NCBI RefSeq assembly: GCF_038025025.1
Contig: NW_027117353.1
Coordinates: forward strand, 680,378-700,377
Reading direction: 5' to 3'
From: Phyllosticta citribraziliensis
Taxonomy: Eukaryota
DNA length: 20,000 nucleotides
Of the stretch, positions 13,808 through 20,000 are shown in pieces (position 1 is the stretch's first letter; each line of letters begins with the position of its first letter). The notes under the pieces are model-generated. The model had not been told where the DNA came from, did no database searches, and worked only from the letters and a program-made list of their open reading frames with translations. The translations under genes were made by a program, and so were the position numbers.

Positions 13808-15358
13808 CTAGTGCCACTTGAATGCCGAACCTGGGTGGTCGTCCCGCAACCTTGGCCCCTTTCCATCAGCATAGTAATTTTCTCTCGTCGTTGCAGCTGG
13901 ATAATCCTCCCAAAACACACCACGCTTCCGCAGCTCGGGCCAGAGCCACTTGATGATGTCCTCAAAGTCGCCCGGATTGATCGCGTATGGGATGTTGAAG
14001 CCGTCGACCCCTGCCTCGTCTACCCAGGTTTGCAGAATGTCTGCCACTGTTTTCGGCGACCCAATGGCTTTCGGGAGTGGACCACCGACTGCCAGCTCCT
14101 CCGCTACGCGCTTCTTTGTCCACCGGGCGCCGTCAGTTCCAGGGACTGTGGCGCTCCAGCAATTGACCATGGACTGAATCCCTGGGGTACCTGTAAAGCG
14201 CAAGTCCTCGTCGTCTGAAAATTGGCCAAAATCGGTGCCAGTCCAGCCAGCAGCCAGTACCAGCGACCCCTCCAGATCAGCATACGACATGTACTCTTCA
14301 TACTTGGCGCGCGCCTTCTCGTCCGTTTCATCCACGATGATCAACATGCCAATGATCAGTTTGGGCGTGCCTGGGCCCCGACCGTTCTTCGCTGCGAGGG
14401 CTCGGATGTCGTCGACTTGCCCGCGCACGGTGTGTGTCTCGAAGCCGGTCAAGAACATGCACTCTGCATATTTGGTTGCAAAGGCCTTGCCAGCAGGGCT
14501 CGCGCCTGCTTGAAAGATGGATGGCGACCGTTGGATCGAAGGCTCGTTGGTAAAAGGACCCGCAACCTTGAAGTACTTTCCCTCGTGGTCGACACGACGC
14601 ACGCGGCCCGGGACCGTGAAAACGCCCTTCTTTGCGTCTTTGACCACAGCGTCATCTTTCCAGGAACTTTCCCACAACTTCAAGGTCACCTGGAGGTACT
14701 CTTCGGCAATCACGTACCGCTCGTCGTGCGGAATCTGGGTGTCCAGGTTGAGGTTTCGCGCGGCGCTTTCGAGGTAGCTGGTCACGACGTTCCACGCAAT
14801 CCGGCCCTTTGTCAGGTGGTCCAGCGTCGAGTACTTTCGCGCCAAAAGAAATGGTGGCTCATACGTCGTCGAAGCCGTCACTCCGAAGGAGAGATGCTTT
14901 GTCACTGCAGCCATCGCTGCGATTGGCATCCTATGACGTTTAACTCTGCAAACAGGGCTACACCCGGAAAGAAGTCATCTCACAATGGATCCGAAATGGG
15001 GAACTGAGCGGCACCTGGGAGCGCAGAATCAATGTTCCCCGGGCCCTTGTACACATCGTATACGCCCAGCATGTCGGCGATGAAGACACCATGGAATTTT
15101 CCTGCCTCGAGGATCTTGGCAAGGTCGGTCCAGTATTCGATGTCTGTGTATTCTGCTGTTCTGTTTTTCGGATGGCTCCAGAGACCTTGGCATGTTACCA
15201 CGTTGTCCGAACTGACTAGCCTGAGGCTGCATACCTGCTGCGACATGTCCCGGGGAGCTCATCGAGAAGGCGTTCATGATCCATTGTTTCTTTGGAGCCG
15301 ATCCATTTGTCGATCCATTGGCCTCGACGCCGTTTTTCTCATTACTCAAGTCAGCCAT
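13808..15358 (-). CDS. FMN-dependent luciferase-like monooxygenase, NtaA/SnaA/DszA family, ~482 aa; exons 15358-15235, 15185-14984, 14930-13808
   Basis: GLWSHP..YWTDLAKILEAGKFHGVFIADMLGVYDVY, DPLMPIAAMAAVTKHLSFGVTASTTYEPPFLLARKYSTLDHLTKGRIAWNVVTS, QAGASPAG..FA, GVDGFNI. Introns 15234-15186 and 14983-14931 give a 1449-nt frame. Confidence 0.92.
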
Positions 15359-15426
15359 TTTGCAGAGAAGACTTGCGCGCGTTGTCGCGGTTTTTGTTGA
15401 GCTGTCTCTGGACTCTCGTCGCCGTT

Positions 15427-16105
15427 TTATCAGACCCGGCGCCAATGATTTCCTCAACTTGACTTTGCTTCCGTCCCGCTCAAACCTTGCTGCGAGGGCA
15501 CGTCATTGCAGCTTGTCATCACATCACTTTTCGATCACCTTCGTGGTCGCAAGTCAGCGTTCTCGCCTCAAGCATCACGATCGCCGCCGGGACATGGTTC
15601 AAAGAAGCTGTGCGGGATGTTCGCTCCGCTCCGCTGTTGGCGCCGGCAGCCCAGACCAAACTCTGGGTCTACTGACACAACACCAACTTTGTGCATTCGC
15701 AACTTTTTCGCGGACCCTGAAATGAAACTACGCAAGCGGCGATTTGCTGTCCGCGTACAGTCTTCTCTCAAGCTTTCGATTTGGCTCTCATCGCGACGCA
15801 TTGCCGGAAATGGAAGGTAAGGCATTTTGTCGTGCCGCTGATTCTGGGGTGTTGGATGATACCATGGAGCTGATTATGAGACAATATCTGCTGGCGCAAG
15901 TTTTCCCTGGTCCTTCCTTCGATAGCGATAGGACAGATGCAATCAGGAGCAAGATAGGAAACTTTTTTCGACGACTAAACGAATCTGCACTTGCAGCTGG
16001 AGGGCCCATCTTTCTGGATACACGACTATATTTGCACACATGCTCGAGATCGACAATAACGATAGAATTGATGTCTATGGCATCATTGTGGCTCTATCTC
16101 GATAG
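15427..16105. promoter_or_regulatory. Cluster of HGATAR sites (candidate AreA/NIT2 nitrogen-control elements) in the monooxygenase-transporter divergent intergenic region
   Basis: CGATAG at 15920, 15926, 16060 and 16100; AGATAG at 15952; AGATAG on - at 16094-16099; TGATAA on - at 15427-15432. Confidence 0.45.
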
Positions 16106-16215
16106 CGCCTGCGGTGCTTAATGCTAGGGAAGCCGGGAAACAGGTGGACAGTCACGGGCCCTCTGGCTGTTTTTCTCGACTTTTCAACCATCACATATCG
16201 TACCGACCACACGAA

Positions 16216-18727
16216 ATGGCAGAAACAGTCCCACCACCCCTCTCGCAGGCCGTAGGATATGGAATCGTCGTTGGGCTTGGAGCTGCCTTCGCCATTGGTG
16301 AGTCCTGGATCCCACAACCTGCGAAACTACTGTACACTATTGCTGACAACCTAGGCATGGTATTTGTGACCAGAGCTTTGAAAAACTCATTCGGCGAAGA
16401 CAATCGAACAACGGAGACGTACGTATGAGCTCCCTCGTTGCTTTGAAATCAACGGGGAATAAATGACGGCGACAGGTTCATGGTTGCAAACCGCACCGTC
16501 GGCACTGGCCTCACTGCATCGGCCGTGATCAGCTCTTGGACTTTTACTTCCGCACTTCTCGGCGCTCCTTACCTGACGTACTGGTACGGAATCGCATTAC
16601 CCATTTGGTGGGCCAATGGCCAGTCCGCGATGATCTGTTTCTTCGCCTTCCTCGCGATCCAGGCAAAATTGAAGGCGCCCAACGCGCACACGCTGACAGA
16701 GCTGATTCGCACGCGCTATGGAACCGTAGCTCACATCACTTGGATCGTCATGGCGTTGCTGAACAACATATTTAATTTCACGAGCATGCTCGTCGGCGCC
16801 AGTACGGCCGTGAGCGCCTTGACTGGAGTCGACATTGTTGCCAGCACGTACTTGCTGCCGCTTGGAGTCGTCATCTACACCTACTTCGGTGGTCTCCGCG
16901 CTACTTTCTTGACTGACTATGTCCACACCTTCATCATCATGATCGTCCTGGTTTGGTTCTCGATCAAGGTGATTGTAGTAAAGGAGATTGGATCACTGGG
17001 CGATCTCTACGACGCTGTTACCGAGCTATCGGGCAATGGCACGCCTGTTGAGGGGAATTACAAAGGAGACTACTTGACCATGACAAGCAGAGAGTCTCTT
17101 CTTTGGAATCATTCACATTGTGTTGAGTGCCCAAGGAACCCCAACCCGAGATGAAGGTTTGCTGATTGCGGTATAGAACAAACTACGGGATCGTGATCAT
17201 GGATACCGGCTTTTGGCAAAAGGTGAGTTTGTGAAGGAGGTCAGGGCCGACGAAGGTGCGAAATCAAAGGGTATATTGTATTAAGTAGGTAAGTCGGGTA
17301 GTGATATCGTCCTAGACGACGCCCGCAGCAGCACCACGCTAGACTATCTATGGACTAGCGCCTTAGCTATCTAACGACTCTACTGCCTACTAGAGACTCC
17401 ATCCTCTATTAGTTTAGCTAATCTATTTAGAGACTAGCTTATTAATACTATAAGGGGTTTTCTACTAATATTACTACTATAGTCTTAAGATATATTCTTA
17501 AAGGGAATATATACTTTACTATTCTATAAGTATTTAGAACTATTATTAGGCTTAGTATACTAGCTCTAGAGTAGATACCTATATTTCTAATATATTTAAG
17601 AGTAAGCTATATTTATTTTATAAATATTCTAAAACTAATAATAAGTAATAAATAATAAATATAGAGGTAAGTAGAGGTCTAGTCCTTTTATATATAGCTT
17701 AAGTAGTTACTAGAAAAGGGGGTACTATAGCTATTCTATTAATTCTATTTATAGTATATACCTCTATTATATTAGCTCTTCTTATTACTATAAGCTCTAT
17801 TATCTTATTTAATATCTATAGTAAGTATATTAATAAGAATCTAATAGACTAAGAACTTATTTACTAGTTATATATTAGTATTATTAGTTCTATACTATTT
17901 ATTTTATTACTTATTACTACTTTCTATAAAGGTAGTATTAATCTTAACTAGACTATTTATATAATTAGTATTATTATATATTTAGAAACCTTCTCTACCT
18001 ACTTTATACTACTCTAAAAAGACTAGATAGAGGCCGCTACTATTATTAGCCCTATATATAGTATAGTCTATAGTTTTACTATCTAGATAGGTATTATATA
18101 CTACTTTTCTAGTAAAATTATAATTATATTAACTAGTAAGACTCTATCTTATATATATACCTATTTAATATCTATATTTATCCTACTATTTATTTTAGTT
18201 ATAATATTACTTATATAGCTAAGTAAGTTTAACTAGAATAAGTTTATAGAGATTAAAAGAGTTAATCCTAACTATTTAATATTAGTTATAAAATTTAACT
18301 ATAATATATACTTTAGCCCTAAATAAGTAGCTTTTATAAAAAGAATAAGTTAATAGGTAGCCCTCTAGGTACTTATTATTTTTTTTAGCTAGATTATTCT
18401 ATAGCTACTACTAATATATAGTATAAAGTTTATTTTTTTAAAAAAGGTCTATATTAACTAGTTATTATATATCTACCTTATTATTAACTAACTATATACT
18501 AGGTCTTTATTATTTAGGTTATTATATTACTTTTCTAGCTATAATTTACTTTATTTATTATAAACTTTTACCTATTAATTAATAGAGGTATCTAGAAGAT
18601 CCTACTTATTTTAAAAAGTACTAAAGAACTCTATATTAAAAATAGTTCTAAAAGTAAAAAGATTATTAATATAGAAGATAATATAAGAATTAATATTATA
18701 GATATTATTAAAAAGACTAAAGATTAA
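16216..18727 (+). pseudogene. DUR3: DUR3/UreA-like urea/polyamine transporter (SSS family) pseudogene: 5' half readable with one frameshift, 3' half RIP-destroyed. Exons 16216-16297, 16355-16418, 16476-17121, 17177-17222, 17455-17601, ~17646/17652-18446, 18503-~18727
   Basis: 5' part reads PPPLSQAVGYGIVVGLG, FMVANRTVGTGLTASAVISSW, KAPNAHTL.E.IRTRYG, GGLRATFLTDYVHT, GNYKGDYLTMTS, NYGIVIMDTGFWQK. The 3' part holds one frame per exon with only TAA/TAG stops and de-RIPs to VPGYILGG.YFAIPWAFGT, PIFPTYP, EVSGGLVLPY.AQAVAGKGG, AVSSIISFDIYG.YIN, ILWPLPMYG, NFYPLIDGG. The 3' end is approximate, and orthology to yeast DUR3 versus a paralog is not established. Confidence 0.9.
17231..17410. mobile_element. 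Possible ~180-bp insertion (solo-LTR/MITE-like remnant) in DUR3 intron 4
   Basis: Intron 17223-17454 is 232 nt versus about 45-57 nt for the gene's other introns. AGTTT direct repeats lie at 17226-17230 and 17411-17415, and removing the insert plus one copy leaves a 47-nt intron. Ends GTGAAGGA..TCCTCTATT are only imperfectly inverted. Confidence 0.3.
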
Positions 18728-19866
18728 TTCTATTACTTTAAATATTTTATTTATAAGTAGTTAGTCTAGAGCTAGTTATTTATAAGATAATTTAATAGCT
18801 ATCTTACTAATTAAAAAATTTTTAATAGATAAGAAGTAGTAGATAATAAGTATTAAGTTATTATTAAGCTATATATTAAATATAGTACTACTTCTAAGGC
18901 TCTACTTATAACTATATTTTAATAATTAACTTAAAGGTTATAATATTAATATATATTTTAATAAAAATAATATAAACTCTTCTTTATTCTATATTTATTT
19001 ATTTAGCTATATATAAATTTTATAAAATTATAAGTTCTATAATATAAATAGTATCTTAAATATAACTATTAACTAATAAAAAATTACTTAACTAGTAGTT
19101 ACTAATTCTAAGATAGAAGATAAGTATAAAATCTATAATATAATTTAGTAGCTTATTATAGATCTTAAGGTATTAGACTAGATTAATATAGACTTATTTA
19201 AATAGGCCCTTTTAATAAATTATAAGGGCTATAAGCTACTAATTAAAGTCTATTACTTATTTTAGAAGTCCTATTTAAAAGAAAATTTTAAAATAGAAGA
19301 CTTTAAAGCTCTTTTATTTTTAAATTAAAGTTTATACTTTTTCTACTTATATTCTAAATAGAGTAATAATAAGTAAGTAGTTAGATTTATATTATTTAAG
19401 TACTTATTAAAATAGAATCTTTTATTATTTAAAAAGAAAGATATTTTTAAATATCTAAATATAAATTAAGTCTTTAATCCTAACTAGATTAATATTAGAG
19501 TTTTAAAAGACTAGAAAAAAGAGTATATTTTAAATTATAGCTTTAAATATAAAAACCTAGTAAAGATCTAGAAAATATAGCTAGCTTAGCTTATTAATAT
19601 AGTTTAAAAGTATCTAGTTTTAAGGAGTATTTCTATAGAGGCCCTCTATATTATAATTAGCTATAGTTATAAGAACTAAGTAGGAATTAATATTAATTAT
19701 ATAATATTAAATAGACTATAAAAAGATAGAGCCTTAAATACTTTTAAAATTTCTATAAGACTAGCTATTATAATTAAGTATATTATATATTTAATATATA
19801 AGATTAATAAATAGTATTTATAAGTAGATATATTCTATATTATAAGAGTAGATCCTATTATAATAA
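17402..19866. other. RIP-saturated AT-rich terminal block
   Basis: By-eye scan found no CpA or TpG after position 17401, one CpG (18035-18036) and a large excess of TpA. This is the classic repeat-induced point mutation signature. A partly mutated transition zone spans ~17270-17401. Confidence 0.93.
19044..19866 (+). pseudogene. RIP-destroyed HET-domain (heterokaryon incompatibility, PF06985-like) gene, truncated by the telomere
   Basis: One uninterrupted frame from 19044 with only TAA/TAG stops. De-RIP reading gives CxxC (19125-19136), DPDWID..LKDWK..C..HG.KCENP.KIW..RPAWLIDV..KCLVPG..YVAISY and I.ERYLWVDALCI (observed AAA TAG TAT TTA TAA GTA GAT ATA TTC TAT ATT, 19809-19841), the HET hallmark motifs YxALSY and YLWVDALCI. 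The start (ATA from ATG at 19044) is inferred. Confidence 0.8.
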
Positions 19867-19901
<35 letters not shown>

Positions 19902-20000
19902 GGTTAGGGTTAGGGTTAGGGTTAGGGTTAGGGTTAGGGTTAGGGTTAGGGTTAGGGTTAGGGTTAGGGTTAGGGTTAGGGTTAGGGTTAGGGTTAGGGT
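19867..20000 (+). repeat. Telomeric (TTAGGG)n array, 22 units including one TTTAGGG variant
   Basis: Tandem TTAGGG from 19867 to the window end with the G-rich strand running towards the end. Extra T at 19879. Confidence 0.99.

What the first reader, a model, noticed from the sequence alone, without database searches (positions are those of the whole stretch)
19044..19885. HET-domain gene fossil cut mid-domain by telomere repeats: de novo telomere healing
Seen: the decoded frame runs through YLWVDALCI..DP and ~25 nt later is joined directly to TTAGGG repeats, with no subtelomeric spacer. Known: HET domains continue beyond this motif (typically QI..M..IY..A..TI and RGWTFQE-like segments), so the rest of the gene is missing. 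Inference: a chromosome break inside a non-self-recognition/cell-death family gene was capped by telomerase. The gene is invisible to the ORF track.
Basis: partly seen in the sequence, partly recalled or inferred. Interest (0 to 1): 0.75.

Follow-up and report, generated by a model that had tools for sequence, protein, structure and literature searches.

The report
Telomere cuts a mutation-erased HET gene
A fungal chromosome ends in the middle of a dead cell-death-family gene, which is a known way for broken chromosomes to be repaired; the less ordinary part is that the AT-rich cap behind the telomere is made of the wrecks of two ordinary single-copy genes rather than of transposons.

Summary
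Observation confirmed. A RIP-aware profile finds a HET-domain gene relic in one frame (19410-19856 supported, 88-90 bits, background at most 23); plain Pfam sees nothing. The telomere array starts at 19867, removing about 490 of about 750 codons. The reading is partly supported. A direct join is the rule in this genome: the 19 telomere junctions share no common element, and another end cuts an un-RIPped CHAT gene (the scan noted that one before). The more interesting fact: the 2.45-kb RIP-saturated cap is not transposon DNA. It holds the 3' half of the single-copy DUR3-like gene (271 of 280 codons explained by C>T/G>A) plus the HET relic, and begins at a 180-bp solo-LTR-like insert in a DUR3 intron. 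No partner copy was found. Most likely RIP, driven by repeats since lost, killed both genes and the cut came later (0.5). Rival: the cut came first and the new telomere drove the mutation (0.33); repeat copies near telomeres are more mutated at 8 of 8 loci. No read support or synteny for the junction was obtained.

The parts
16216..17222 (+). DUR3-like (SSS family) transporter gene, 5' half, not RIP-mutated
   Evidence: tblastn with orthologue P0373; 194 of 210 codons identical in the long exon; Pfam SSF positions 1-186 of 406
17232..17411 (+). 180-bp solo-LTR-like insert in a DUR3 intron; TG...CA-type ends, 5-bp target duplication with one G>A change in the right copy; inner edge of the RIP zone runs through it
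   Evidence: 8 other copies in the genome; alignment and dinucleotide gradient; ends and target duplication; 2 of 4 isolated copies have perfect 5-bp duplications
17455..18661 (+). 3' half of the same DUR3-like gene, RIP-saturated, exon order kept
   Evidence: RIP-aware profile 306.9 bits; 49 of 52 and 222 of 228 codons compatible with C>T/G>A only, shuffled maximum 20 and 65; found with 11 TAG and 6 TAA stops in the genome search
18662..19043 (.). RIP-saturated intergenic DNA (14% GC)
   Evidence: composition; assignment as intergenic is inference from the flanking gene relics
19044..19409 (+). probable N-terminal region of the HET gene relic (same frame; not statistically supported)
   Evidence: stops 11 vs 17 and 21; profile score 3.0 bits, 193 of 1000 shuffles as high
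19410..19866 (+). HET gene relic: pre-HET region and first half of the HET domain, cut by the telomere
   Evidence: 87.7-90.2 bits in one frame, no frameshift; 25 of 30 conserved columns compatible
19867..20000 (+). telomere array (TTAGGG)n, 22 units, at the contig end
13811..14974 (-). luciferase-like monooxygenase exon, divergent partner of the DUR3-like gene (context)
   Evidence: Pfam PF00296; the same pair is adjacent in metagenome locus L138

Best explanation
The last 2.45 kb of this chromosome arm is ordinary gene-bearing DNA (3' half of a DUR3-like transporter gene, intergenic DNA, 5' third of a HET-domain gene) that was erased by repeated rounds of RIP (shown). The trigger was repeated DNA that is no longer there: either a copy of the segment distal to the solo LTR on another chromosome end, or repeats further out on this arm between which the genes lay (inferred). 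Later the arm lost its tip by a break or by erosion, and telomerase added repeats inside the already dead HET gene (cut shown in the assembly; order and enzyme inferred). The cut is then a neutral event in dead DNA, one of many at the ends of this genome.
For: Pure transition decay without frameshift: 271 of 280 DUR3 codons, CpA sites 20 of 20, CpC 11 of 43; saturation to 0 CA/TG is what RIP does to duplicated DNA (established; thresholds in PMC1805685 passages). The edge is sharp (50% to 24% GC within about 200 nt) and lies in a dispersed repeat, a natural breakpoint for ectopic copying; 4 of 4 isolated copies of that repeat and their flanks are unmutated, so the LTR alone does not cause RIP. 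The assembly holds an unmutated terminal duplication of about 149 kb (C5 5' end and C13 3' end, 99.97%), the precursor state, if real. No decayed telomere unit stands in phase at any of 19 junctions, as expected if junctions are younger than the mutation. Ends are cut often: an un-RIPped CHAT gene is cut at model position 232 of 289, and 6 junctions fall inside repeats with internal homologues, with short matches of about 1-5 nt to the telomere repeat, as in Magnaporthe (19 of 24 events with 1-4 nt seeds, PMC7367193 passages).
Against: No partner copy in the assembly by DNA search, protein search or RIP-aware search of 187 kb of AT-rich contig ends (best 11.5 bits); none of the LTR copies examined is followed by DUR3 sequence. 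The C5/C13 duplication may be an assembly overlap and its inner edge has no copy of this LTR. Telomere units may be protected or renewed, so their intactness does not fix the order. Seeds of 2 nt or more occur by chance at 52% of positions in RIP DNA, so short junction matches are weak evidence. 15 of 19 ends carry such caps and telomere-near repeat copies are more mutated, which this account explains only by age.
Confidence: 0.5

Rival explanations
1. Cut first, mutation second: the arm broke inside an intact HET gene and was healed; the new telomere then seeded heterochromatin over the last 2.45 kb, as far as the LTR, and a RIP-type (DIM-2/RID) activity mutated this single-copy DNA over successive sexual cycles without any duplicate. 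The un-RIPped CHAT end would be the 'before' state and this end the 'after' state.
For: No duplicate found. 15 of 19 telomere arrays are preceded by a RIP cap, 11 of them 0.3-2.6 kb long. RIP windows within 2 kb of a telomere are poorer in GC than those at other contig ends (median 18.8%, n=51, vs 25.4%, n=169). The same repeat families carry 660 vs 193 T/A-for-C/G differences in favour of the telomeric copy, 8 of 8 loci in that direction, against 9 of 16 in the control among non-telomeric copies (sign test p=0.008). Non-CpA sites are hit (CpC 11 of 43). In Neurospora the DIM-2 pathway mutates non-repetitive linkers and flanks of repeats (bioRxiv 10.1101/2021.04.05.438447 passages) and ends carry H3K9 methylation and about 2-kb AT-rich caps (PMC2596135 passages). 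The genome has three C5-methyltransferase genes (not assigned).
Against: Saturation at this level without a duplicate is not described in the passages read. The excess at telomeric copies can reflect age (best hits in large repeat blocks may be young copies), sites are not independent, and single control loci reach the same 3:1 ratio. Most other caps contain repeat fragments, which ordinary RIP explains. One end (C10 5') has about 100 unmutated bases right at the junction. Only one other end (C15 3') shows a host reading frame apparently running into the cap, by eye only; at C3 5' and C18 5' the last gene ends before the cap.
Confidence: 0.33
2. Misassembly: the telomere array was joined to the HET relic by a chimeric read, and the chromosome continues.
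For: 5 of 19 arrays in this assembly are followed by further, non-telomeric DNA, and two contigs share about 149 kb of end sequence, so ends are not all clean. No read-level confirmation is in hand.
Against: The array is at the contig end, correctly oriented and of usual length (22 units; others 15-25, one internal 7). The missing 3' part was not found intact or decayed at any fetched contig end, where an assembly break would most likely leave it.
Confidence: 0.08
3. The HET piece is not native to this place: a 5' fragment was captured onto the end of the arm (break-induced copying or end joining) and capped; it was RIP-mutated because it was then a duplicate of its donor locus.
For: Capture of internal sequence at failing ends is described in Pyricularia (PMC8381367 passages). 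The one related locus found (L138) has the monooxygenase and transporter but no HET gene within 8 kb.
Against: No donor: the closest own-genome HET gene is only 38% identical to the relic's best homologue and scores 23.8 bits against 53.2 for outside homologues. It does not explain why the DUR3 3' half, which is native and collinear, is equally mutated. L138 is a distant fungus (65% identity).
Confidence: 0.07

Closest known systems
Simple terminal truncation with de novo telomere formation in Magnaporthe/Pyricularia oryzae (PMC7367193, PMC8381367; passages read), including loss of AVR-Pita
   Same: Telomere repeats joined directly to internal sequence, poorly conserved junctions, short seeds, loss of terminal genes.
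   Different: Here the cut gene is a RIP relic with 23 stops, and no MoTeR-like element or interstitial telomere is at this junction; the seed cannot be measured because no intact homologous DNA is in hand.
Neurospora crassa chromosome ends: about 2 kb of AT-rich RIP-marked DNA between telomere and first gene, no shared subtelomere (PMC2596135, passages read)
   Same: Same architecture: 15 of 19 ends with a RIP cap, no common element.
   Different: That paper supposes the caps are old repeats whose homology is unrecognisable; here one cap is decoded and consists of two host genes with no copy elsewhere in the assembly.
RIP-inactivated NWDp1/NWDp2 pseudogenes of Podospora anserina (PMC1805685, passages read)
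   Same: Non-self-recognition family genes erased by several rounds of RIP, with zero CpA extending into flanks.
   Different: Those are a duplicate pair (about 80% identical) with WD repeats; here no partner is found and the gene is cut by a telomere.
DIM-2-dependent RIP of linkers and flanks in Neurospora (bioRxiv 10.1101/2021.04.05.438447, passages read)
   Same: Mutation of non-repetitive DNA next to repeats.
   Different: Shown for engineered close repeats at moderate levels on both flanks; here mutation is saturating, one-sided and reaches 2.45 kb to the telomere.

Membership tests
HET domain (Pfam PF06985) | Score above the curated cut-off (22.5 bits) with the Pfam model | tested here: not met
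   0 families for the frame read with X at stops; expected for DNA that has lost about two thirds of its G and C; the decayed DUR3 exon also gives none
HET domain (Pfam PF06985) | Homology to HET proteins once C>T/G>A decay is allowed | tested here: met
   87.7-90.2 bits, shuffles at most 16.0, other AT-rich DNA at most 23.4; homologues carry PF06985
HET domain (Pfam PF06985) | First motif Y.ALSY.WG | tested here: inconclusive
   Aligned at the right place, but L, V and W columns are not compatible with RIP changes alone (3 of the 5 misfits)
HET domain (Pfam PF06985) | Central motif YLWVD.LCI | tested here: met
   Aligned and compatible
HET domain (Pfam PF06985) | Second half: M..IY..A..TI and R.WT.QE motifs | tested here: not met
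   Absent: the telomere array starts before them; not found elsewhere
Heterokaryon-incompatibility (het) gene in the functional sense | Allelic or non-allelic cell death on fusion | not testable with these tools
   Dead gene; one of about 30 HET-domain loci; PMC1805685 reports 120 further HET loci of unknown role in Podospora
De novo telomere addition (chromosome healing) | Repeats joined directly to formerly internal sequence, correct orientation, at the chromosome end | tested here: met
   (in the assembly)
De novo telomere addition (chromosome healing) | Short seed matching the telomere repeat at the break | tested here: inconclusive
   Not measurable at this end; about 1-5 nt at 6 other ends, with high chance rates in RIP DNA
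De novo telomere addition (chromosome healing) | Junction seen in reads; uncut allele in a relative | not testable with these tools
   No read alignment obtained; only one run holds part of the region (share 0.20); no close syntenic locus
Repeat-induced point mutation (RIP) | C>T/G>A transitions with CpA preference and TpA excess | tested here: met
   CpA 20 of 20, CpC 11 of 43; 271 of 280 codons; indices
Repeat-induced point mutation (RIP) | Target is duplicated in the genome | tested here: not met
   No second copy; the assembly is incomplete at repeats and only the best candidates are scored, so a lost or unassembled copy is not excluded
Solo LTR | TG...CA ends, 5-bp target duplication, dispersed copies | tested here: met
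   2 of 4 isolated copies with perfect duplications
Solo LTR | Same repeat flanks a gag-pol element | not tested
   One copy borders a long RIP block on C13/C5; the block was not decoded

The most novel reading that the evidence does not exclude
In this fungus a telomere itself drives RIP-type hypermutation of the 1-3 kb of single-copy DNA behind it, up to the first barrier (here a solo LTR). New ends are formed inside genes (the un-RIPped CHAT end), are then erased to an AT-rich cap (the HET/DUR3 end), and are cut again: a ratchet that eats genes from chromosome ends and explains the AT-rich caps long seen in RIP-competent fungi without needing lost repeats.
Probability: 0.3. Interest if true: 0.75.

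Novelty: new variant of a known kind. Interest (0 to 1): 0.42.

Why it matters
The cut itself is ordinary chromosome healing. What matters is that one AT-rich telomeric cap can be read back and proves to be host genes with no surviving copy. The origin of such caps was left open for Neurospora (PMC2596135, passage read). If caps are commonly made of single-copy genes, RIP is not confined to duplicates at chromosome ends, annotation pipelines miss recent gene losses there, and terminal gene families (HET, CHAT, NLR, transporters) turn over by a route that leaves a readable record. The RIP-aware search used here makes that question testable in any telomere-to-telomere fungal genome.

Tried and rejected
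Plain Pfam on the decayed frames: no hit for the HET relic or the DUR3 3' exon, so Pfam scans of other caps were not run (no power). First idea that 17430-18690 is a transposon relic: rejected, it is the DUR3 3' half. Support for the HET N-terminal part: not significant. A 23.4-bit HET-like hit in a multi-copy repeat on C6/C14 is short and treated as background. Idea that the gene at the C3 5' end is cut by its cap: rejected, it ends before the cap. The first control for the unmutated DUR3 exon was out of register and was redone. Of 29 own-genome HET matches, 24 full-length ones were extracted and 1 dropped for wrong orientation. Synteny: 4 metagenome loci, only L138 long enough; no ELP2 or HET near it. 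Contig ends: 8 kb fetched for both ends of 20 of 22 contigs plus the two smallest whole; the rest of the genome's repeats were searched only through the genome tool. Literature searches (listings only, five papers read as passages) gave no report of a telomeric cap decoded as single-copy host genes; subscription journals are largely missing from that library, and a 2009 survey of Neurospora chromosome ends is recalled but was not read.

Full report
Setting. The window is the last 20 kb of contig G000:C16 in a 31.4-Mb fungal assembly of 22 contigs. The closest named homologues of two genes from this genome are from Phyllosticta species, which places it near that genus. A (TTAGGG)n array of 22 units occupies 19867-20000. 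From about 17430 to the array the DNA has 19% GC and no CA or TG dinucleotide, the mark of saturating RIP.

The HET relic is real. The + frame from 19044 has 23 stops in 274 codons, against 42 and 43 in the other frames. Pfam finds nothing in it. I therefore scored the DNA against protein profiles with a model that lets C become T and G become A. Scores rose with closer homologues: 16.0 bits (23 own-genome domains; 2 of 2094 shuffles as high), 32.9 (7 picked by eye; 0 of 1839), 50.2 (120 homologues), 87.7-90.2 (119 homologues of the best-scoring protein; 0 of 2487 shuffles, maximum 16.0). The best hit in 187 kb of other AT-rich DNA was 23.4. The alignment covers 19410-19844 in one frame without a frameshift, and single homologues extend it to 19853-19865; 25 of 30 conserved columns fit C>T/G>A alone, and three of the misfits are in the first HET motif. 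The part 19044-19409 is plausible but unsupported.

The gene is cut. 115 of 118 homologues with the motif have a median 258 residues before this point and 494 after it. The rest was not found as an intact orphan (20 matches of 23 candidates, all in other HET genes) nor decayed in the AT-rich blocks fetched (best 13.7 bits; a simulated decayed half scores 76-86). No read-level check of the junction is in hand.

A direct join is normal here. All 256 pattern matches are accounted for by 19 arrays, 14 at contig ends and 5 followed by other DNA. No element is shared by all junctions. Three join GC-rich DNA directly; one of these cuts an unmutated CHAT gene at model position 232 of 289 (also noted earlier by the scan). 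Six fall inside repeats that continue at internal sites, with about 1-5 nt matching the telomere repeat; chance rates for such matches are high (52% for 2 nt, 16% for 3, 2% for 4). This is the pattern described for Magnaporthe/Pyricularia (passages of PMC7367193 and PMC8381367).

The cap is not transposon DNA. The DUR3-like gene upstream is intact in its 5' half (194 of 210 codons identical to orthologue P0373), and its 3' half continues inside the cap (306.9 bits, 17446-18661), with 49 of 52 and 222 of 228 codons explained by C>T/G>A and no gap in either exon. Orthologues are about 600 residues long (4 of 5 cluster members). The edge of the mutated zone lies in a 180-bp repeat inserted in an intron, with TG...CA-type ends and a 5-bp target duplication. 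Four isolated copies of this repeat elsewhere are unmutated with unmutated flanks; two border a RIP block in the same orientation and two lie inside one. The exon 10 nt inward of the repeat is untouched. No second copy of the cap was found.

How it most likely happened. Shown: transition-only saturation of two host genes; a sharp, one-sided edge at a dispersed repeat; truncation by a telomere array in the assembly. Inferred: RIP needs repeats (established), so the simplest account is a partner since lost, either a copy of the segment distal to the LTR on another end or repeats further out. The assembly shows a possible precursor, about 149 kb shared by the C5 5' and C13 3' ends at 99.97%, though this may be an assembly overlap. 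None of 19 junctions has a decayed telomere unit in phase, which fits junctions younger than the mutation. On this reading the HET gene was dead before the cut (0.5).

The rival is that the telomere came first and drove the mutation (0.33). Fifteen of 19 arrays have a RIP cap; windows within 2 kb of a telomere are poorer in GC than RIP windows at other contig ends (18.8% vs 25.4%); and copies of the same repeats are more mutated at telomeric ends (660 vs 193 differences, 8 of 8 loci) while the control is balanced (9 of 16). Against it: age can produce the same excess, single control loci reach 3:1, most caps hold repeat fragments, and only one other end shows, by eye, a host frame entering the cap. 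In Neurospora DIM-2-dependent RIP does reach non-repetitive linkers and flanks (passages of bioRxiv 10.1101/2021.04.05.438447), and ends carry about 2 kb of RIP-marked AT-rich DNA whose origin was supposed to be old repeats (passages of PMC2596135). Misassembly (0.08) and capture of a foreign HET fragment (0.07) are less likely.

Verdict. Observation confirmed; interpretation partly supported. Healing inside a gene is known, and this genome does it repeatedly. HET membership holds by decay-aware homology; a role in non-self recognition is only a family label (29 other matches). The added value is a decoded telomeric cap made of single-copy host genes with an LTR as edge, and a first within-genome hint of extra mutation near telomeres. 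Eight literature searches showed no such decoding in their listings; no supplements were read. Interest 0.42; new variant of a known kind.

Noticed in passing
L068:6103-7890 (G000:C10, 3' end): Unmutated CHAT-domain reading frame runs straight into the telomere array, cut at model position 232 of 289. Also noted earlier by the scan.
   Followed up: partly
G000:C5:1-148770 and the mirrored 3' end of G000:C13: About 149 kb shared at 99.97% identity up to the same telomere junction, GC-rich parts unmutated: recent terminal duplication or assembly overlap.
   Followed up: partly
L071 (C13 3'), L074 (C17 3'), L056 (C18 5'), L058 (C20 5'), L078 (C6:1757823-1757863): Five telomere arrays continue, each after TT, into 1-4 kb or more of other DNA, four of them GC-rich: fusions, internalised telomeres or chimeric reads.
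   Followed up: no
L059:5574-7784 (G000:C1, 3' end): A NACHT-ankyrin NLR-type gene ends 108 nt before the telomere with no AT-rich cap; with HET and CHAT, three immune-type genes sit last on their arms.
   Followed up: no
L073:2607-3785 (G000:C15, 3' end): A kinase-like frame runs into the RIP cap and continues as a run of in-frame stops that may be a decayed glutamine tract: possibly a second host gene half erased.
   Followed up: partly
all telomeric ends fetched: Repeat copies in telomeric caps carry about 3.4 times more T/A-for-C/G differences than their best non-telomeric matches (660 vs 193).
   Followed up: partly
window 13811-17222 and L138:4813-9868: The divergent pair luciferase-like monooxygenase plus DUR3-like transporter is conserved in a distant fungus (61% and 65-82% identity); here the transporter is destroyed while the monooxygenase exon is open.
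   Followed up: no
L039 (C1 5'), L048 (C10 5'): C1 5' has three variant telomere units at the junction; C10 5' has about 100 unmutated bases between a long RIP block and the array.
   Followed up: no
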